A DNA stretch of 64,000 bases from Octopus sinensis (taxonomy: Eukaryota): the NCBI RefSeq assembly GCF_006345805.1, contig NC_042999.1:44888001-44952000 (forward strand). The letters run 5' to 3'. The translations under genes and the position numbers were made by a program. The notes beneath the pieces were generated by a model. It made no database searches and had not been told where the DNA came from. It saw nothing but the letters and a program-made list of their open reading frames with translations. Position 1 is the stretch's first letter, and each line of letters begins with the position of its first letter. This document shows, one piece after another, positions 3,382-62,624 of the stretch.

Positions 3382-3775
3382 CTCTCTTTTACTCTTTTAC
3401 TTGTTTCAGTGGTCATGTTGGAGCACTGCCTTTAGTCAAGTAAATCGACCCCAGGACTTATTCTTTATAAGCCTGGTACTTATTCTATCGGTCTCTTTTG
3501 CTGAACTGCTAAGTTACGGGGACATAAACACACCATCATCGGTTGTCAAGTGATGTTGGAGAGACAAACACTGAGACACAAACACACACACACACACACA
3601 CATATATATACATATATACGACAGGTTTCTTTCAGTTTCCATCTACCAAATCCACTCACAAGGCTTTGGTCAGCCCAAGGCTATAGTAGAAAACACTTGC
3701 CCAAGATGCCACACAGTGGGACTGAACCCGGAACCATGTGGTTGGTAAGCAAGCTACTTACCACACAGCCACTCA
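3382..3775 (-). mobile_element. tRNA-derived SINE family A (internal CA/TA microsatellite)
   Basis: Minus strand begins agtggctgtgtggtaag (A-box-like) ... gggttcagtccc (B-box-like), then ttgggcaagtgt, and ends gactgaaacaagtaaaagag. More than 15 copies in the window. Confidence 0.9.
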
Positions 3776-11027: not shown

Positions 11028-11100
11028 TGCCAAAACCCAGGATTGAACAAGTGGCCTTTAGATCTTCAGTCTAATGCTCTCCCATCTGAGCTATTCCAGC
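11028..11100 (-). pseudogene. tRNA-Phe(GAA) pseudogene
   Basis: 73 nt: GCTGGAATAGCTCAGATGGGAGAGCATTAGACTGAAGATCTAAAGGCCACTTGTTCAATCCTGGGTTTTGGCA. Collinear with metazoan tRNA-Phe. D and anticodon arms are intact, the T-stem is broken and the acceptor stem has three G-U pairs. Confidence 0.85.
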
Positions 11101-11983: not shown

Positions 11984-13801
11984 TACATATAGTTGGGCTT
12001 CTATTTAGTATTCATCTGTCAAATTTCACTCACAAAGTATTGTGAGTGAAATTTGACAGATGAAAGCATTGATTGACTGAAGACTCAAGCACAAGACACT
12101 TTTCCAATTGCCAAAGATGCTATGCAGTGGGATCAAACATGAGACCAAGTGGTTGCAGAACAAACTTGCTAACCACAGAAGACTGCAATTACACTTGAAG
12201 GAATAAATTTACCATTTGTAGATGTTGTTCCTCAATTTTGGTGCGGGTGAACTAAGGTGATTGTAGTACAAGTAAGTAAATATATAAGTAAAGTTAGTCT
12301 AACAAAAATAAAATAAAAATAATAACCCTTCCCTTGATAAAGAATGTTGTGACTATATTTAGCTGTTTTATAAAGTGTATATAGTTATCAAAGCAAATGG
12401 AAGTTGTTTGTTGTTATAGTTATTGAAATAGTTATTGAAACAATTTTGGATGAATAAGAATACAGTTCAATAAGGCAACTTGGCCTCTTAACTTTATCAC
12501 ATTCTCTCCCTTTATCTCTCTATTCATCTCTCTCTTCTTGCTCTCTATGTTTCTCTCTCTCTTTATCTTTTTTAAATGTTGGTTTGTATTTGTGTTGAAG
12601 TATCAACTGATAAATCAATGTAAACTACAAAATCCTAATATGTGATATCTAATAATATCCAAATATTTGGTAACTAATCACATATCTATTAAATCAATAA
12701 TCAATGTCCAATTAACTGTGACATTATGTTCATGTATACATCCCTCCTTTATTGGTTTTCAATAATTCTTCCCCCAAAACTGTACCAGCCTTTTAGGTGC
12801 CATATCAATTTAATTTATCAACACTTAAACATTGTAGCTATGATAAGAGAGGTGCTTAATTAATTCATCAATCAATCAATTGATTTCTAAGTCAATTCAA
12901 TGCTGTATATAAATTTTTTGTAGAAAGTGTTTCTATTTAATTAAAAAAAAATTAACAAACCATAAAACAAAACAATAATCAACAAAAAATATAATTAAAT
13001 CATTGTTAGAACTGACAAAAAGAAAAAAAGAAAAGAAATCTTCCTCTTGTTTTATAGTTTTTGAGATGAGAATTTTTTAAAGCAAATATTTAGGCCATTG
13101 ATTTCTTGATTTCTTTTAGTTGAGTTGCACCATAGCCACTTTATAAGTCCTAAAGTATTCATTTATTTCAACATCTGACAAAACAATGAAACAAAACTGA
13201 ATAATTTGTTCAGGAAGGAAAGAGGATGTTAGTTGGTTATATCATTGTTAAATAAATAAAACGTTGGAGTCTAAACATACAAATATAGAACTTCTGTTTT
13301 GTGACTACAACTAGCACCAACTGAAACTAAAATTCCTATAAATAAATCACTCTAAATATCAATGGTAAATAAGATATTTTTTTCTTGAATGCTTTGAAAG
13401 ATATGATCAGTTGATTGCAAAACTGCAAATATATTCTCTTTTTTTCAATTTGTATTTTTGTTTGAAGTTACCTCAGAGGAAATGAACTTTTGAAGAAAGT
13501 GAGAATATATTCTAATTCTATAACGACTACATTATTGCTTTCCAGATGTGACAATTCGAAAACAGTGTCTGTATAACAGATAATTAAATGTACATGCAAA
13601 ACTAGACAAAATTACGTAAAGTTATTCTTATAAAATAAAAGTCTTTGAACTATGTCTCTTTCATAAAGCTATCATGTTTTATACCTTTCTATTTTACATT
13701 CAGGTAAGCAAAATTTTACAGTTCTGTATTTAAGAGATGAGGAGGAATTATGTATATTATTTACATTTGACGGATACTTGTCCTCATCTTGTTTGTTGTT
13801 A

Positions 13802-13846
13802 ATGCAACATTTCAGCTGATATACCCTCCAGCCTTCGTCAGGTGTC
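13802..13846 (-). ncRNA. Minimal type I hammerhead ribozyme motif
   Basis: gacac-CTGACGA-a-GGCTG-gagggtatat-CAGCT-GAAA-tgtt. Confidence 0.7.
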
Positions 13847-13891
13847 TTGGGGAAATTTCGAACCTGGGTTCTCATTCCTAAGGTACTTTTC

Positions 13892-13965
13892 GGGCACATG
13901 GCGTAGTGTTTAAGAGCACAGGTTACTAACCCCAAAATTCTGAGTTCAATTCCAGGCAGTGACCT
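13892..13965 (+). promoter_or_regulatory. tRNA-like Pol III head (A and B boxes)
   Basis: GGGCACA-TGGCGTAGTGTT-taagagc..-GAGTTCAATTCC-aggcagtgacc; tRNA-length unit. Confidence 0.75.
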
Positions 13966-14053
13966 GAATAATAATAATAATAATAACAACAACAACAACA
14001 ACAACATTAAAAAAGACTTTAGGAATGAGAACCCAGGTTCGAAATTTCCCCAA

Positions 14054-14098
14054 GAGACCTGATGAAGGCTGGAGTGTATATCAGCCAAAACATGTTAA
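14054..14098 (+). ncRNA. Hammerhead motif, GAAA mutated to AAAA
   Basis: gagac-CTGATGA-a-GGCTG-gagtgtatat-CAGCC-aaaa-catgtt. Confidence 0.6.
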
Positions 14099-14452
14099 CA
14101 ACAAACAAGATGAGGACAAATACCCATCAAATGTAAATAATGAAGCAAAATTTTGCTATAACAATTTAATATTAAAAGAATATAGCAAAATATATTTCAG
14201 TTATATATTTTTAAGAAAATAAAAAGCAAATCATTTTCTAATTAGCTCTTGTTCCATAGCTGTAGCATTATAATTTTATCTTCTAATTTATTCCCCAGAA
14301 AGTTATCCCTTCCACTACTTTGATTTCACCATATCTTTCTTACACTTTTTCAACATTATGCTAACTTAAATTAACCTCAGGAAATACAGTGGTCACCTCT
14401 CTTCCCACTCCTTCTTCTCTTGAAGATCCTCTAAAACAATGATTTCAAATGG

Positions 14453-14825: not shown

Positions 14826-15136
14826 ACTAGCCTCCCTTCTCCATGCCGCCAATGTTATCCAAGAGAAAGGCAAAGCCAATGCAGTTTGGCACCAGTGATG
14901 GCACAACTGGAGCAACATGAAAGAAAGTGCTTTGCTCAAGAACACAATACACAACCTGGTCTAGGAATCGAACTCACTACCTCCTGATTGCGAGCCATTC
15001 ATAGTCATGGTCCACAGGTGTGCTGTCTCATCTCCCTGTCTTTTCTATCACTGCTATGATGGGCTCTCCTTCACAGAGCTGGCTAGTCTCATACCTCCTC
15101 TACACAGGAGTGCCTCTTATTTCTTTTATTTCTTTT

Positions 15137-15764
15137 CTTTTACTTGTTTCAGTCATTTGACTGTGGTCATGCTGGAGCACTGCCTTTAGTCGAACAAATC
15201 GACCCCAGGACTTATTCTTTGTTAGCCTAGTTCTTATTCTATCGGTCCAATTTGCCGAACTGCTAAGTTATGGGGACATAAACACACCAGCATCGGTTGT
15301 CAAGCAATGTTGGGGGTGGGGGACAAACACACACACACACAAACGCACACACACACACACACATACACACAAACACACATATACACACGATGGGCTTCTT
15401 TCAGTTTCCATCTACCAAATCCACTCACAAGGCTTTGGTTGGCCTGAGGCTATAGTAGAAGACACTTGCCCAAGTGTCTTTTACTATAGCCCCAAGCAGA
15501 CCGAAGCCTTGTGAGTGGATTTGGTAGACAGACACTGAAAGAAGCCCATTGTATATATGTATATATATATATGTGTTTGTCCCCCCAACATCACTTGACA
15601 ACTGATGCTGGTGTGTTTACGTCCCTGTAACTTAGTGGTTCAGCAAAAAAAAAAACCGATAGAATAAGTACTAGGCTTACAAAGAATAAATCCTGGGGTC
15701 GATTTGCTCGACTAAAGGCGGTGCTCCAGAATGGCTGCAGTCAAATGACTGAAACAAGTAAAAG
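15137..15764. mobile_element. Two headless SINE-A copies fused as a palindrome
   Basis: A minus copy (15137-15474) and a plus copy (15471-15764) meet at aagacacttg-cc-caagtgtctt. Confidence 0.88.
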
Positions 15765-23325: not shown

Positions 23326-23351
23326 CATATATGAATACAAAAATATTGCTT

Positions 23352-23697
23352 TCAAATGGTACGGAGGTCGTTTTTGTTCCTCCTTGACCAAATCCAGCTG
23401 GAACACCTTGCCACTGTCTCTGATATTGCCTTTAAGGCTTTGGTCCTGTTCTTCCCAGAGACTGAGAGTTGTTTCATTAGATCGTAAACAGAATTGTCCA
23501 CAAAATCTCTGGCTTCAACCTCTACAGTGAGTACTTTGACCAAGAAGTTGGCTTCCCTCGGGCTGTTGGCCAGACTGGTGTATTTTTCAAACTTGAACAC
23601 ATGTGCTTTTTCAATTCTAAGGTCAAACAGCATGGTGAGTTTAATCGAAATCAGTTGCTTTGATGAACTGGAATGGAATATATCTAAAGGGTTAACT
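23352..23697 (-). mobile_element. HERO/R2-superfamily retrotransposon C-terminal restriction-like endonuclease fragment
   Basis: PLDIFHSSSSKQLISIKLTMLFDLRIEKAHVFKFEKYTSL..VEVEARDFV..KAISETVARCSSWIWSRR resembles the RPD..IELTVP..E.AH..K..KY..VEVG.RGF..S.WIW.RR pattern. Confidence 0.7.
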
Positions 23698-23717
23698 TAA
23701 ACTTATAACTGAGATGC

Positions 23718-23909
23718 AGTTCTATATTTAAGAGATGAGGAATCATGTACATTATTTACATTTGATGGATATTTGTCCTCATCTTGTTTGTTGTTAACAC
23801 AATGTTTAACACCTGACACCTGAAGAAGGCTGGAGGGTATATCAACTGAAACGTGTTAACAACAAACAAGATGAGGACAAATATCTGTCGAATGTAAATA
23901 ATGTAAATA
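23718..23909 (+). mobile_element. Second copy of the hammerhead-bearing inverted-repeat element (headless)
   Basis: Same left terminus agttctatatttaagagatgagga. Motif gacac-CTGAAGA-a-ggctg..caact-GAAA-cgtgtt at 23815-23857. Perfect 13 bp TSD ataactgagatgc at 23705-23717 and 23910-23922. Confidence 0.82.
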
Positions 23910-26900
23910 ATAACTGAGATGCTTTTCCCCATTCTGTGCTATAGACTTCTGTCTCTCATTAGATCAGTTTCATGTTGAATGTCCCTGTCAATGAAATTCA
24001 CTCACAAGACATTAGCCACCCAGGGACTGCACTTGTGCAAGTTACTATGCAGTGGTGCTGAACAAGAAACAACATGGTTGAGAAATAAACTTCTTAAACA
24101 ATATAACCAGGCCTGTATGTGTTAGGTATTTTACAGCAGAATATGTCTTAAAATATTACCTCAGATGACAACAAGAAGACTCTCTTTTTGGACAATGGTT
24201 CGATTGTACAATGTTTGTGTCGAAACTACGATTTTGTATGGTAGAAAATTATGGGGCCTAAATGCTTTGTGTGTGCCAATGATGGGGAAAAACTGAAGCA
24301 AGGATGATCCATTAGATGGGTAATATCACTGTATATAAATGATGAGGTACAAATGAGCTGATATAAAAATCTAAAGCATGTGGTTAGTTCAGTCGGATAT
24401 AAAGTGTCTTACTTCTATTCCTATTCTTTTGTTTTTTTACTTAGCTAGGGAGAAAGGGAGTATCCATGACCCTCTGCCAGGCCCTGGAAACTGATGTAAA
24501 GGAAATAGGAAGGTATTCTCAAAGTGAAGCTCTGACCTGAATGCTTGCAGCAGAGTAGGCTTCTCCAGTAAAGGCACCCAAATAGGCCACAGTGAGATGC
24601 ATTTGAACTCAGAACAGATAAGTTTTTGACAGACCACTGTATTAGTACAGATATGTAATGCATAAGGACGATTCTTGTTGAGTAAAAAAAAATGGCAAGG
24701 GATCCATATAGAAGGAAACTGTAGGAAAGGACGACATAGTCAGAAGTAGCGAAAGTTGATCTCAAGATGTTGAACCTCAAAGGAATACGAGTAACAGGTT
24801 TTGTTGGAGAGGATGTACCTAAACCAGCAAGCATGGAAAAGTAAATACAAAAATGATGATGATGGCAATGGTGATGATGATGATGATGATGACTATATAT
24901 ATAGATATTTGAAGCAAGAATATTTTCTGATTTACTGTGATGCATATTACAAATGGTTAAGATTTTCATTCCTCATAAGATGGAATCACATATGTACTTG
25001 TACTCAAACCCTGATTGAACTGCAAACCATTAGTTCAGGCAGGTTCCAATATACTATTTATTATACTACAGACCAGTATGTGATGCATGTAAATACCCTC
25101 TGAGGCCCCAAAAGACTTCTTAAGAGTCAGGCTCTGGGTTTTGCATAAAAAGTAGATGAGGGTCAACTTTTTTACTGGATACAAATGTAAAGAAGACAAC
25201 ATTTTTCAGTGATGTCTCCTACGGTCATATGTACAACACAGTTTTGCTTTACAATAACAACATTACAAATCAACCTGAACAATATTACTAAACAAAGACC
25301 TAAAGAAGATCAATATCACTGAATGAAGATATATGCCATGACACAAATCACTGAGTGTGTTAGGGGAAAAATTGTCGGTAAGACTACAAACTATGAGACA
25401 CTTCTGTTAGCTGATAAAGGTGGAAAACGAAGTGACTTGATCGTGTAACAACACTGTTTTGCATAAATGTTCATGCATGGATAAGTCTTAATGAAAGAAA
25501 TTGTATATATGATGATCATAAATGGAGAGGTTGAGCAACCTCACAGAATAGACAGGAAAACATAAGTTGGCTGATGACCAGGAAAGACAGAGGGAAGAGG
25601 ATGTGTCTGTTGTTGTGTATCTAAGGTCTCCCTAGGTTTCAGAAATCGATAATTTGATTGATAGGTGGCTTTTAGCAAGTTCTCCCCCACCAAGTAGTAG
25701 TAATTATTTCTAATGTAGACACAAGGCCATTAATTTTAGAGAGAGATGGGGAGCACTCGATTATATTAACTCCAGTACTTGACAGGTAGTTTATATTATC
25801 ATCCCTAGAGGGATGAAGGGCAAAATTGACTTCGATAGGGTTCGAACTCAGAAAGTAAAGAGCTGGAACTAATACTGCAGGGTATTTTTTCTATTTTTTA
25901 ATGATTCTGTCACATCCCCCATCTCCCACACAAGTGTTAATAATTAAAAAGAAGTACTGCGTCTGGTTAGTTCAGTGGGATATAAAGAGTCTTACTACTG
26001 TTTTTTTATTTTATTATTTTTGTTGTTGCTTAGCCAGGGTAAAGACCCTATGCTGAGCCTTGGAAACTGATATAAAGGAAGAAGGTTTCCTCAAACTGGA
26101 GACATGACTTGGATGCCTGCTGCAACAGAGTAAGTTTCTCTAGTAAAGGAACCCAAAGAGTTGGTGGATTAAATCTACTGTCAAAATAAGCCTAGACTTC
26201 AAAGCTTTCAGATTTTGGCACAAGGCCAGCAATTTTTGGAGAGGGTGTAAGTCAATTAAATTGACCTCTATGTTCAACTGGTATTTGTTTTATCAACTCT
26301 GCAATGATGGAAGGTAAAGTGGACCCTGGCAGAATTTGAACTAAGAATGTGAAGATGGATGAAATGCCACTGAGCATTTTATCTGGCATACTCTTTCACT
26401 CTTTTACTTGTTTCAGTCATTTGACTGTGGCCATGCTGGAGCACCGCCTTTAGTTGAACAAATCGACCCCTGGACTTATTCTTTGTAATAACTTCATTTG
26501 ATTGTAAACCCTGGAGTTAAGCTCATTCATGGGTCCTAGCTATCAGACAGGCAGTAATCCATTGACTATTTTATCAAACACATACCTGAAAGTCCACAAA
26601 TATTTGCTGAGGCTTCACAATTATAAACAAAGAGAATGGAGCAAGCAACTTTTATACATAATTCTGAAGAGTGGAATTGTGAAATGTGACAATGACGCTT
26701 CGTGAATAAATACTTACATATGTTATTGTATTATATAGCAAATTTATTGTTTTTACATGAATTCCATATGATTACAATTGTTTCATAATCTTCTCTATGT
26801 AGTATTATTAATTTCAACATTCCAAGTCATATACAAATCATATGCATTCAAATCATATACATTCATTTTTCCTCGATATACATACATAATACAACTGTAT

Positions 26901-40560: not shown

Positions 40561-40744
40561 TATGTTGGAGGAGAGTTTTCCAACCCAAATAAGTATCAAA
40601 AAGTGGATGTAAATGAAGACAATGATGATACATATTTGTGCATGTGCACACAGGCAAATCCATCCATCCATCCATCCATCCATACACACATACATGCATG
40701 TATACATATATGCAGGCATGCATACATACATACATACTCTTGTA

Positions 40745-41158
40745 CTCTCTTTACTCTTTTACTTGTTTCAGTCATTTGACTGTGGCCATGCTGGAGCACC
40801 GCCATTAGTCGAGCAAACTGACCCCAGGGCATATTCTTTGTAAGCCTAGTACTTATTCTATCGGTCTCTTTTGCCAAACCACTAAGTTACGGGGACGTAA
40901 ACACACCATCATCGGTTGTCAAGCAATGTTGGGGGGGACAAACATAGATACACAAACATATACACACACACACATACATACATATATACACACACATATA
41001 TACGACAAACTTCTTTCAGTTTCCGTCTACCAAATCCACTCACAAGGCTTTGGTTGGCCCGGGGCTATAGAAGAAGACACTTGCCTAAGGTGCCATGCAG
41101 TGGGACTGAACCCGGAACTATGTGGCTGGTAAGCAAGCTACTTACCACACAGCCACTC
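40745..41158 (-). mobile_element. SINE family A
   Basis: Full-length homology. Confidence 0.9.
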
Positions 41159-41479
41159 ATCATCATAGGTGTATTAGGCTAAGTACTTAAAAAAAAATTT
41201 ACCTGAAAACCTAGAAATACTATGTTTCTCAAAGAATTAGCAAAAGAAACTGATGTGGATTCTCCACATCCAATCTATTAGTGTCACAGTGAAGATTTGT
41301 AAAACATTCCAAAGAATATCCGTCTGGGATCCTTTAGATAAATAGATGCACACACATCGGTGTGTGCACCGATAGCTCAACCAACTTACAAACTTAACCA
41401 CATATTTACAAATACTGGGAGCTCTCTTAACTCATTAAATTTTGTCCCTTTTGTTAGTGACTGGCTTGAGCTCTCTTAA

Positions 41480-43575: not shown

Positions 43576-43954
43576 ATCACTTGTTTTACTTTATGTATCC
43601 CATAACTTTCTGATTCAATAAACAGAAATCAATGAAATAAATGCTAAATGGAAATAAGGAGTGGGAGCAATATTATCATTGACTAAAGCCCTGAAAGTGA
43701 TATCCAAGTTTGAAATGAGTAAAAAAGGTAAAAGAGAACAGAGAAAGAGAGAGAAAGAGTAGGTAAAAAAAAATAGTTTGTTATAAGATGTAAAAACAAG
43801 TATAAATCAGACAAGAAAGAAATGGCATCATTAAGATTATTATTATTGTTTTCCTTTTGGTAGTAAAACAACCACCGGGGTTTAAATACCCTAATACAAC
43901 TTAAAAAAGGGAGTTAAATGGGAGCAAATTGTTACAGCATCAGAACAAATGTCC

Positions 43955-44365
43955 TCTTTTACTCTTTTTTTATTTGTTTTAGTCATTTGACTGTGGCCAT
44001 GCTGGAGCACCGCCTTTAGTCAAGCAAATCGACCCCAGGACTTATTCTTTGGAAGCCCAGTACTTATTCTATCAGTCTCTTTTGCCAAACTGCTAAGTTA
44101 TGGGGACTTAAACACACCAGCATCAGTTGTCAAGGGATGCTGGGGGGGGGGGACAAACACAGACGCACAAACATATACACACACATACACATATACATAT
44201 ATACGACGGGCTGCTTTCAGTTTCTGTCAACCAAATCCACTCACAAGGCTTTGGTCAGCCCGAGACTATAGTATAAGACACTTGCCCAAGGTGCCATGCA
44301 GTGGGAATGAACCCGGAGCCATGTGGTTGGTAAGCAAGCTACTTACCACACAGCCACTTCTGTGC
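43955..44365 (-). mobile_element. SINE family A
   Basis: Full-length homology. Confidence 0.9.
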
Positions 44366-46977: not shown

Positions 46978-47346
46978 AAGTCGCCTCAATAACAGAAGTA
47001 ATCAACTATTACAGAACCCTTTCAACATTGCAATGAGCTTACTTTACTGTATTGAGGGCTCAATACTGCTCTATTCCTACCATAAGCAAAGCCCCGATTC
47101 ATGGCCAACCTCTATTCACTCACTACCAGTCATCAGATATGACACCTTCTTGTATAACTTCATTGTCAATACTTGAATGGTGGATCTACAGGTTTCCTTG
47201 ACTTCATATACTTAATACTCATTTTAACCATATATTTATCTACCTCAGTTGCTGGTAACCTCAACAGGGTAAATTTTGGGAAGATCCTCTTCTACACTTT
47301 TTCGCATTCAACAATATCTCAGAGCACGTGTATGTATATATCTATG

Positions 47347-47742
47347 CTCTTTTTTACTCTTTTACTTGTTTCAGTCATTTGACTGCGGCCATGCTGGAGC
47401 ACCGCCTTTAATCGAGCAACTCGACCCCGGGACTTATTCTTTGTAAGCCCAGTACTTATTCTATCGGTCCCTTTTGCCGAACCACTAAGTGACGGGGACA
47501 AAAACACACCAGCATCGGTTATCAAGCAATGCTAGGGGGACAAACACAAACATACACGCACACACACATATACATATATAAGACGGGCTTCTTTCAGTTT
47601 CCGTCTACCAAATCCACTCACAAGGCTTTGGTCGGCCTGAGGCTATAGTAGAAGACACTTGCCTAAGGTGCCACGCAGTGGGACTGAACCTGGTACCATG
47701 TGGCTGGTAAACAAGCTACTTACCACACAGCCACTCCTGCAC
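47347..47742 (-). mobile_element. SINE family A, young copy
   Basis: CpG-rich, full length. Confidence 0.9.
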
Positions 47743-53640: not shown

Positions 53641-54360
53641 TCAGTATATTATATTATATATAGTCCTGATGTGTTTGCTTATGCAGCCTTATTTTTTCTA
53701 CTTCTCTACCTCTGTGTTTTACTGTATATGTACTTCTAGCTTTCATTGCTGTCTTTTTTTAACCTCCTTCATTTCATTAATTGCAGGAGAGGTTGTTTGT
53801 TGAGAATGAGCCAGGACACTTAGCATCTATTGACCTGTAATATGGTAGTTTCTAACAAAACTGGGTGTCAATAGAGCTGGGCATGGGATGGACAGGATGC
53901 TGTCAGCAGGGTGAGAGCAGCAAAACCCTGTTAAAAATTTAGTATACTGGCAGGGCAAGCAAAGCCTTGTGAATGGATTTGGGAAATGGAAACAGAGAGA
54001 AGCCTGTTGTATATCTCTCTCTCTTTCCCTCACTATGTGTGTATGTGTGTGTGTGTGTATAACTGTGTATATGTGTGTGTGATTGAGTGTGACAGTGTGT
54101 GTGTGTGTGTTTGTGTGTGTGCATGTATGTGTTGCATCGCCTTGTCTTGGTATCATGTGATAGTCGTAAAAGAGCATTACTGCTATACAGGCAGTGTCAT
54201 TCATTTCCAATATTCTGCAGAAACATGTCTGACTGTTGGGGAAATATTACCTTACTTGGAGACAGGTGACAGTTGGCAACAAGAAGACCACCTGGCTGTA
54301 GAAAACTCTACTTCAATAAATTCATCTGACACCATTCCAGTATGGAAAAGTGAATGTTAA

Positions 54361-54771
54361 AACAATGATGATATTGACGACGACGACGATGATGATGATT
54401 ATGATGATGATGATGCTGATGAGGATGATGATGCAGATGATGATGATGATGCAGATGATGATGATGATGCAGATGATGATGATGAGGATGATGATGCAGA
54501 TGATGATGATGATGCAGATGATGATGATGACGCAGATGATGATGATGATGCAGATGATGACGACACTTATAATATTGATGATGATGATGATGATGGTGAT
54601 GATGGTACAGATGAGGATGATGATGCTGATGAGGATGATGATGCAGATGATGATGACGATGAGGATGATGATGCAGATGATGATGATGATGCAGATGATG
54701 ATGACGCAGATGATGATGATGACGCAGATGATGATGATGATGATGATGCAGATGATGACGACACTTATAAT

Positions 54772-61245: not shown

Positions 61246-61926
61246 TGTATGTATGTATGTATGTATGTATGTTTGCATGTATGTATGTATTATGTATACA
61301 TGCAAATTTGTATGTTTTGTTTTATGCATGTATTCTCACTCATATAGTTGCATGTCTAGACATGCTCATATATACTTACATGACAAACTTCTGGAATATT
61401 TTGCAGATTTCTACAGTTCCAGTAATGGTTTGGATCAGTAGTCTTCAAATCAGCTTTCTCCTTTCTGGTTTTGAGAAGCCTAATTTCTCAAGATTGGTAT
61501 TTATGCAGTGTGTTACACATCCAAGAGCCCCAAATGGTTACAGGTATAAATGTACATACGTATGTATGTATGTATGTATGTATGTATGTATGTATGTATG
61601 TGTGTATGTGTGTATGTATGTATGTATGTATGTATGTATGTATGTACATACGTATGTATGTATTTATGCATCTATGACCATAAATATACATGTGCCTTTC
61701 TGTCATGGAATGGGTTAGATGGTTGTCACAGTCTGAATCAATTCTTATTCAAAGTTATAGCTCTTCATATTAGGTCAGGGGTCATGTCTTGCTCATCTGT
61801 TCCATTTTTGATAGAGTTTTCACAGTTGGATACCCTTCCTGTCACTAATCCCTTTACAGAGTCTACAAAGTGAATTTTACCGTGGTACTGGCACTAGTAG
61901 TGCCACAGCAAGGAAAAGGAGTTATG

Positions 61927-62236
61927 ATTCTAAGTCTTTATTCATTCTAAGTCTTTATTCATTCTAAGTCTTTATTCGTTCTAAGTCTTTATTCATTCTA
62001 AGTCTTTATTCATTCTAAGTCTTTATTCGTTCTAAGTCTTTATTCGTTCTAAGTCTTTATTCATTCTAAGTCTTTATTCGTTCTAAGTCTTTATTCGTTC
62101 TAAGTCTTTATTCATTCTAAGTCTTTATTCGTTCTAAGTCTTTATTCGTTCTAAGTCTTTATTCGTTCTAAGTCTTTATTCATTCTAAGTCTTTATTCAT
62201 TCTAAGTCTTTATTCGTTCTAAGTCTTTATTCATTC
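61927..62236. repeat. 17 bp minisatellite (a/g)ttctaagtctttattc, about 18 copies
   Basis: Perfect units differing only at one A/G position. Confidence 0.95.
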
Positions 62237-62624
62237 ACTAGAATCTAGAAGGGTGTCTGTCTGATCCTTGACAAGACCAGTCGAAAGAGAATCATCACTC
62301 ACTTGTTTTGTTTCTGTTTGTTCATACTTTTCTTTGTATGTGGATATGTAAAAACAGGTCATTTTCTATAACGTCCCCAGCCGTTGCAGAGACAGGCTTG
62401 CCTGTTATTAGGCTAGAGCCCCCGTTTTTTTGCACTGATGTGGGCTAAAGTACCTCCTCCACTTTTTCTAGTGTTTTTTGTTAAAGCTCATCGGTCAGCA
62501 TGTTAGTTTTATGTCCCAGCAGAGTGGGTAGCCATTCAGAGGTTCATAGTAACAGTATAGACAGCTGGGTATAAAGGTTATCTCTTTCCTAGCCCTCAGG
62601 GGGTAACTTGAGCCTAGTAACCCG

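What the first reader, a model, noticed from the sequence alone, without database searches (positions are those of the whole stretch)
23705..23922. Second independent insertion of the hammerhead element with a perfect 13 bp TSD
Seen: the same left terminus (agttct(a/g)tatttaagagatgagga) and nearly the same right stop point (aatgtaaataatg) as the 13.7 kb copy, but a different internal inversion junction, which here falls at the ribozyme (aacacaatgttt|aacacctgacacctgaaga), and a different TSD (ataactgagatgc). The three cores read CTGACGA, CTGATGA and CTGAAGA, so they differ only at position 7, the unconstrained position of the hammerhead core (C>T could also be CpG decay). Inference: fixed ends with a variable inversion point indicate a reproducible integration mechanism, not a chance hairpin.
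Basis: partly seen in the sequence, partly recalled or inferred. Interest (0 to 1): 0.75.

Follow-up and report, generated by a model that had tools for sequence, protein, structure and literature searches.

The report
Inverted Penelope retrotransposon end, ribozyme scar
This is one of thousands of short back-to-back copies of the end of a Penelope-type jumping gene, laid down in the pattern already known for these elements; the new detail is a small deletion at the predicted self-cutting site that one arm often has and the other lacks, which likely means each arm was copied separately from the element's RNA.

Summary
The 13-bp target-site duplication (TSD), the shared ends and the three core variants are real. 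The insert is a 5'-truncated, head-to-head fragment of the pseudo-LTR of a high-copy Penelope/Poseidon-type retrotransposon (5,631 exact tail matches; RT plus GIY-YIG-type ORF upstream in long copies). Fixed ends, a ~30-nt tail on one arm, a variable inversion point and a TSD are the published architecture of these elements. In 100 sampled loci, 28 of 52 complete inverted copies have a 9-17 bp TSD. CpG decay at core position 7 is not supported. This copy's ribozyme is broken.

New here: the two arms of an insertion share their subfamily marker (67 of 72 pairs) but not a 3-nt deletion at the predicted cleavage site. About 8-15% of arms carry it, this copy's short arm among them, and it shows no age trend. 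That favours two separate cDNAs over fold-back copying, and may be a trace of the ribozyme on the template RNA; DNA-level slippage is not excluded. Earlier scan notes already filed what reads as the same family, with its tRNA-like head, at other loci of this genome. No empty site was found.

The parts
23705..23717 (+). left copy of the 13-bp target-site duplication
23718..23807 (-). long arm: 3' end of the pseudo-LTR including the ~30-nt tail; stops about 6 nt 5' of the predicted cleavage site; open reading frame matching the start of the element's ORF
   Evidence: tail continues into the ORF in near-full-length L162
23808..23814 (+). 7-nt junction filler AACACCT; reads as a slipped re-copy of the long arm's AACAC, joined through the ACAC shared with stem I of the short arm, with ACACCTG duplicated (inferred)
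   Evidence: sequence; junction table
23815..23909 (+). short arm: pseudo-LTR from stem I of the hammerhead to the internal end site, no tail
23815..23857 (+). decayed minimal type I hammerhead: stem I 23815-23819, core CTGAAGA 23820-23826, stem II 23828-23832 with 23843-23847 (two changes), GAAAC 23848-23852, 3-nt deletion at the cleavage triplet, stem I 3' strand 23853-23857
23891..23909 (+). two AATGTAAAT units at the short end; unit number varies from arm to arm in the family
23910..23922 (+). right copy of the 13-bp target-site duplication
13718..14142 (.). sister insertion of the same family: long arm 13718-13890 (minus), short arm 13891-14142 (plus) that also lacks 3 nt at the cleavage site; 12-bp TSD at 13706-13717 and 14143-14154
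13892..13966 (+). tRNA-like head of the pseudo-LTR (A-box-like and B-box-like motifs, judged by eye) followed by an (AAT/AAC)n run; absent from the 23.7 kb copy
   Evidence: not called by ARAGORN or Rfam

Best explanation
The insert is a 5'-truncated, head-to-head copy of the end repeat (pseudo-LTR) of an abundant Penelope/Poseidon-type retrotransposon, flanked by a 13-bp duplication, and it was likely made by two separate target-primed reverse transcription events on RNA from one source element. Inferred steps: the element's GIY-YIG-type nuclease nicks both strands about 9-17 nt apart. One nick primes at the tail end and the other at an internal site about 30 nt upstream. The two truncated cDNAs are joined at their far ends through a few complementary bases, here those of ribozyme stem I, and filling the gaps gives the TSD. 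The reverse transcriptase likely skips 3 (or 5) nt at the hammerhead cleavage site in roughly one pass in eight, independently on each arm. The copy is a decayed remnant with no predicted function.
For: Shown: 5,631 exact tail matches, reversed control 0. Long copies run from RT and nuclease-type ORF pieces straight into head, ribozyme and tail (RVT_1 E 1e-9; 18 longer relatives, 14 with PF00078 and all with PF26215). The tail continues into the ORF N-terminus in L162. Of 100 tail loci, 52 are complete inverted, 15 partly inverted, 33 direct within 1.5 kb; TSDs in 28 of 52 (mismatched-pair control 1 of 260), 2 of 33 direct, 0 of 15 partial. Junctions vary from about -874 to -22 and many overlap by 1-6 nt. 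Same source for both arms: position 7 agrees in 67 of 72 pairs (shuffled mean 48.8); 29 of 340 derived bases are shared against 3.0% for random pairs. Separate copying: deletion state agrees in 47 of 82 pairs (shuffled 46.6); of 19 deletion-anchored arms whose partner covers the site, 5 partners share it. Deletion counts in the genome: 892 against 4,984 intact and 164 for a control deletion in the neighbouring AAC repeat. No age trend (median divergence 0.037 in 24 arms vs 0.038 in 139, p=0.17). From papers: two adjacent RT start sites and cleavage plus extension of both strands by a PLE protein in vitro (PMC11167929).
Against: No empty site was seen, so single-copy origin of this TSD is not shown. 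24 of 52 complete inverted copies gave no TSD call. No excess of 5' ends at the cleavage site (2 of 115 arms), which a cleaved template should give. The older family C, with the canonical GUA triplet, has the 3-nt deletion in only 2 of 99 matches. The deletion is somewhat commoner where both arms span the site (19 of 79 vs 9 of 73, p=0.09; anchored arms partnered 24 of 30 vs 12 of 29, p=0.003), which also fits a DNA hairpin process after insertion. Among symmetric junctions, 3 of 8 deletion-bearing pairs share the deletion against 4 of 34 asymmetric ones (p=0.11), so some copies may be fold-backs. 5 of 72 pairs disagree at position 7. Pfam gave no GIY-YIG hit. RNA reads show no pile-up of molecule ends.
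Confidence: 0.72

Rival explanations
1. Same element, but the second arm is made by self-priming (fold-back) and copies the first, as proposed for Penelope in PMC3846280; the cleavage-site deletion then arises later in the DNA, by slippage in the GTTGTGTT tract or during hairpin extrusion of the inverted arms.
For: Arms share source markers. 14 of 82 scored pairs have symmetric, palindromic junctions at the tRNA-like head. The deletion is enriched in partnered arms.
Against: Most junctions are asymmetric (68 of 82). The deletion shows no age trend, is about 5 times commoner than deletion in the better tandem repeat next to it, and is rare in the older family C, which has the same GT-N-GT microhomology. 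Solo arms carry it too (6 of 43).
Confidence: 0.18
2. The short copies come from a separate non-autonomous, SINE-like RNA started by RNA polymerase III at the tRNA-like head and moved in trans by the Penelope protein. This concerns the source RNA and is compatible with the best explanation.
For: 66 of 83 arms that reach -266 stop between -295 and -266, where the head starts (32 of 42 in tail-selected loci alone). 3,897 exact head matches. The head is also present in the older family C. Marker frequencies differ between head-start and ORF-bearing arms (G at -212 in 75 of 117 vs 14 of 41).
Against: The head lies inside the pseudo-LTR of ORF-bearing copies, both classes carry both alleles, and a hairpin at the same place could stall the RT. 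ARAGORN and Rfam do not call the head. No read starts there in three RNA-seq runs of one study. The 23.7 kb copy itself does not reach the head.
Confidence: 0.45
3. A MITE-like DNA transposon or a chance hairpin.
For: Inverted arms flanked by a TSD.
Against: The arms end at different element positions, TSD length varies from 9 to 17 bp, copies are 5'-truncated, and the sequence is the end of an RT-encoding element.
Confidence: 0.02

Closest known systems
EN+ Penelope elements of Adineta vaga (PMC3846280; passages read)
   Same: Adjacent inverted pLTR, 8-10 bp TSDs, a 31-bp tail on one arm only, pLTR and tail covering the first codons of the ORF, palindromes at some junctions.
   Different: Thousands of copies here, TSDs of 9-17 bp, mostly tiny pLTR-only inserts. 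That paper favours self-priming; the arm comparison here favours two cDNAs for most copies.
Poseidon of Anolis, PAc (PMC11167929; abstract, main text and start of methods read)
   Same: Hammerhead overlapping the ORF start, two RT start sites that bound the tail, AT-rich targets, both strands nicked and extended.
   Different: A tRNA-like head and an (AAT)n run precede the ribozyme here. That paper found no RNA-seq reads ending at the cleavage site and, in the parts I read, reports no deletions there.
Minimal type I hammerheads of metazoan PLEs (PMC4209133; parts 1-2 of 4 read)
   Same: 5-bp helix I, an extra base between 9 and 10.1, G10.1-C11.1, palindromic ACGU in place of helix III; opposite-strand pairs 100-700 bp apart were already noted in Schistosoma.
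   Different: The triplet is GUU in families A and B here (GUA in family C). The 23.7 kb copy has lost the triplet.
Schistosome SINE-like repeats with a Pol III promoter and hammerhead, and animal non-LTR retrozymes (PMC6765202, passages; bioRxiv 10.64898/2026.07.22.740005, part 1 of 5)
   Same: Promoter-like head followed by a type I hammerhead; link to PLE pLTRs.
   Different: Those are mostly tandem, non-coding units. Here the head sits in the pLTR of a protein-coding PLE and copies are head-to-head.

Membership tests
EN+ Penelope-like element, Penelope/Poseidon type | RT domain with upstream DKG motif | tested here: met
   RVT_1 E 1.2e-9 on L159; DKG in L135 and L157 pieces; motif named in PMC8557442
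EN+ Penelope-like element, Penelope/Poseidon type | [quoted passage not shown] | tested here: met
   By motif inspection only: VYSIPCSCGRLYKGET, then R..EH, H..H, KLKEA, HNN in L154 against the description in PMC8557442. Pfam gave no GIY-YIG hit and PDB no real hit.
EN+ Penelope-like element, Penelope/Poseidon type | No extra Zn-finger in the RT-EN linker (separates it from Neptune and Nematis) | tested here: met
   No CX2-5CxxC in the linker of L154 or of relative P0010, by eye. No tree was built.
EN+ Penelope-like element, Penelope/Poseidon type | pLTR with hammerhead covering the ORF start, and a 30-40 bp optional tail | tested here: met
   Tail reads into the ORF in L162 (E 3e-22, 90 E 6e-5); short arms end about 20-40 nt before the tail end. 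The window's own short peptides match P0010 only weakly (E 0.04 and worse).
EN+ Penelope-like element, Penelope/Poseidon type | 5' truncation, inverted arm, TSD of variable length | tested here: met
EN+ Penelope-like element, Penelope/Poseidon type | TSD sequence present once at the empty site | tested here: inconclusive
   No bridging contig among the joints shown for four DNA runs (85 more joints not shown); paralogous repeats stop about 25 nt short of the site
Minimal type I hammerhead | CUGANGA, GAAA and UH core with helices I and II (family level) | tested here: met
   Majority states, fold of L016; core kept in families A, B and C while loop II, N7 and N17 differ. The region also codes for protein, so the conservation has two possible causes. 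No Rfam hammerhead match among the 150 of 190 rows shown.
Minimal type I hammerhead | Intact motif in the 23.7 kb copy | tested here: not met
   Cleavage triplet deleted, stem II mutated, hammerhead fold not predicted
Minimal type I hammerhead | Self-cleavage, as a dimer | not testable with these tools
   Needs an in vitro assay
tRNA-derived SINE | tRNA-related head with A and B boxes | tested here: inconclusive
   Boxes seen by eye, motifs recalled; no ARAGORN call in 11 loci, no Rfam tRNA hit in L173
tRNA-derived SINE | Pol III transcript starting at the head | tested here: inconclusive
   5' ends pile up there in the genome; no start pile-up in RNA-seq reads
tRNA-derived SINE | Lineage separate from the coding element | tested here: inconclusive
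   Allele frequencies differ but no marker is exclusive

The most novel reading that the evidence does not exclude
The 3- and 5-nt deletions are fossil scars of hammerhead self-cleavage in vivo. Two element RNAs held in a dimeric RT particle activate the dimer-dependent minimal ribozyme, and the telomerase-like RT jumps the cut using 2-3 nt of microhomology, separately on each arm. Thousands of genomic copies would then record ribozyme activity and the two-cDNA mechanism behind the inverted structure of Penelope insertions.
Probability: 0.25. Interest if true: 0.75.

Novelty: new member of a known kind. Interest (0 to 1): 0.4.

Why it matters
The insertion itself is ordinary. The family is useful because two questions about Penelope-like elements are open in the papers read: how the head-to-head structure forms (self-priming proposed in PMC3846280; later steps unvalidated in PMC11167929) and whether their minimal hammerheads act in vivo (no in vivo evidence in PMC4209133; no read ends in PMC11167929).

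Tried and rejected
CpG decay at position 7: rejected. Stronger conservation of the core than of flanks among copies: not seen. The deletion as a subfamily marker: rejected, it is unlinked to position 7 (8 of 48 A arms, 14 of 136 T arms) and discordant between arms. Truncation peak at the cleavage site: not seen. Empty site: four DNA runs labelled as other organisms showed no bridging contig among the joints listed; the old repeat left of the site has paralogs, but they end before the TSD. Expression: the run search listed no holder on record as RNA. Three raw RNA-seq runs of one study, about 6% read, cover the family on both strands equally, show no molecule ends, and carry the deletion in 11-13% of reads, like the genome; this looks like passive transcription of copies and decides nothing. 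Rfam on the window gave mostly microsatellite matches to miRNA models. Fold z-scores were not significant (-1.2 to 0). Pfam and PDB did not name the nuclease. The protein atlas gave no answer. No structure prediction, tree or covariance model was run. Literature: a search for hammerhead, retrotransposon, cleavage site, deletion, template jump and Penelope gave 0 papers. Most subscription papers are not searched, PMC5785218 (dimer cleavage of PLE hammerheads) was not held, and no supplements were read; Repbase or Dfam may already list this family.

Full report
Observation. The 13-bp repeat is exact at 23705-23717 and 23910-23922 and occurs only twice in the window. Between the copies lie a 90-nt arm on the minus strand, a 7-nt filler and a 95-nt arm on the plus strand. 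BLAST of the window finds the family only here and at 13.7 kb. Position 7 is T in 142, A in 49 and C in 6 of 201 arms, and G8 shows no CpG-type decay (7 of 202), so the CpG remark fails. The short arm here, like the short arm at 13.7 kb, lacks 3 nt at the predicted cleavage triplet. It does not fold as a hammerhead; the intact copy L016 does form stems I and II.

What the element is. A 23-nt tail pattern has 5,631 exact matches in the 2.7-Gb genome, control 0; an open pattern across the ribozyme end has 10,218. Thirty loci fetched with the sequence upstream of one long copy carry ORF pieces with DKG, RT motifs and a C-terminal nuclease motif with two internal cysteines, and run on into a tRNA-like head, an (AAT)n run, the hammerhead and the tail. 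One piece hits RVT_1. The nuclease piece finds 18 longer relatives among 403 candidates, the longest 847 aa. In the near-full-length locus L162 an inverted short arm is followed by the tail, which reads on into the ORF N-terminus. This is the layout described for Penelope/Poseidon elements (PMC3846280, passages; PMC8557442, passages; PMC11167929, main text). Clade placement rests on motifs seen by eye; no tree was built.

Architecture in a sample. I took the first 100 listed tail matches of contig C1. They include four near-identical loci (L080, L081, L083, L084) and one overlapping pair, which were kept in this count. 52 have a complete inverted short arm, 15 a partial one and 33 none within 1.5 kb. 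A TSD scoring 9 or more was found in 28 of 52 (9-17 bp, mode 12; control 1 of 260), in 2 of 33 direct copies and in 0 of 15 partial ones (p=5e-6). Some direct copies may have a partner beyond the fetched stretch. Tail ends fall within about 5 nt and short ends inside a 9-nt repeat some 20-40 nt upstream. Junctions range over 850 nt and many overlap by 1-6 nt. In this copy the filler can be read as a slip back over AACAC and a join through the ACAC of ribozyme stem I (inference from the sequence).

Conservation. With loci chosen on the ribozyme or on the 13.7 kb copy left out, substitutions are 50 of 1350 in the core, 89 of 1257 in loop II, 78 of 1391 in stem II and 344 of 7784 in flanks. The core beats the loop (p=1.6e-4) but not the flanks (p=0.25), as expected for copies that decay after insertion. 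Two related families in the genome (B and C) keep CTGANGA and GAAACGT while loop II, position 7 and position 17 differ. The stretch is also coding, so this has two possible causes.

Arm-against-arm test. In 123 unique long/short pairs, position 7 agrees in 67 of the 72 scorable pairs (shuffled mean 48.8; 31 of 36 vs 22.9 in loci not chosen on the site). Arms share 29 of 340 derived bases against 3.0% for random pairs, and 10 of 118 in pairs that differ at the cleavage site. So both arms usually come from one source element. The state of the cleavage site agrees no better than chance: 47 of 82 vs 46.6, and 23 of 40 vs 23.5. Of 30 arms fetched for carrying the 3-nt deletion, 19 have a partner that covers the site: 13 intact, 5 with the same deletion, 1 with a 5-nt deletion. 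That fits independence at 15% (p=0.14) and not inheritance at 93% (p=6e-13). Genome counts are 892 deleted, 4,984 intact and 164 for the control deletion in the adjacent AAC repeat. In the first 100 open-pattern matches I counted by hand 8 with 3 nt, 3 with 5 nt and 2 with 2 nt missing. Deleted arms are not older. Family B, with the same local sequence, shows it in 5 of 29 unique best hits; family C in 2 of 99 matches, counted by hand.

Reading of the deletion. Both the 3-nt and the 5-nt deletion can be placed with one edge on the predicted cut, using 2 or 3 nt of microhomology, as an RT jump would leave. Against a cleavage scar: there is no peak of 5' ends at the site (2 of 115), the family with the canonical GUA triplet has few such deletions, and RNA-seq shows no ends. 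The deletion is commoner in partnered arms, which fits either dimer-dependent cleavage or a DNA hairpin process. My odds: 0.25 cleavage and jump, about 0.45 RT slip at the folded or GU-rich site without cleavage, about 0.3 later DNA slippage. The number of 9-nt units at the short start site also varies by arm (3 or 4 units in 26 of 86 long arms). This recalls telomerase-like realignment, but I did not test it against age.

The tRNA-like head. 66 of 83 arms that reach -266 stop within -295 to -266, and the head is already present in family C. A Pol III start would explain this; so would an RT stall at the hairpin there. ARAGORN and Rfam do not call the head. I noted this before looking at earlier findings. 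Four earlier, unreviewed notes on other loci of this genome report the same reading, so it is not new to the scan; a look-up for the arm-discordant deletion returned nothing.

Limits. No empty site. Samples favour well-preserved copies and contig C1. Arm boundaries come from BLAST ends and are good to a few bases. Tests on the deletion were chosen after seeing it in the first loci, although the anchored sets and genome counts were fetched afterwards. Earlier notes call the organism an octopus; I did not test that.

Verdict. A real, ordinary insertion of a known kind of element, with one testable mechanistic lead. Interest 0.4.

Noticed in passing
window 23334-23680 (minus): Old, degenerate repeat with about 40 paralogs at 70-81% identity; its translation resembles the restriction-like endonuclease end of a non-LTR retrotransposon (motif recalled, no Pfam support). 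It ends about 25 nt left of the TSD.
   Followed up: partly
window 11028-11100 (minus): tRNA-Phe(GAA) called by ARAGORN and Rfam at 45.4 bits; gene or pseudogene not decided.
   Followed up: no
L257-L285 and L286-L315: Two related PLE families: B (same ribozyme end, different upstream sequence) and an older family C with a GUA triplet and a tRNA-like head directly before the ribozyme, without the (AAT)n run.
   Followed up: partly
L046 and L075, about 440-480 nt upstream of the tail end: Another abundant repeat sits inside the 9-nt repeat of the element in at least two loci, splitting the tail from the rest of the arm.
   Followed up: no
3' ends of arms, e.g. window 23891-23909, L093, L113, L254: The 9-nt unit at the short RT start site is present 1-4 times and often differs between the arms of one insertion; gains outnumber losses.
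   Followed up: partly
L219, L224: Head-to-head pairs in which both arms carry the tail.
   Followed up: no
L080, L081, L083, L084; L135, L150-L152: Near-identical insertions with shared flanks: duplicated segments or redundant assembly contigs.
   Followed up: no
window 3411-3775, 15119-15544, 40738-41159, 43949-44360, 47341-47737; 61860-62318; 54276-54749: Several copies of other interspersed repeats, a 17-bp tandem array and a 9-nt-period array.
   Followed up: no
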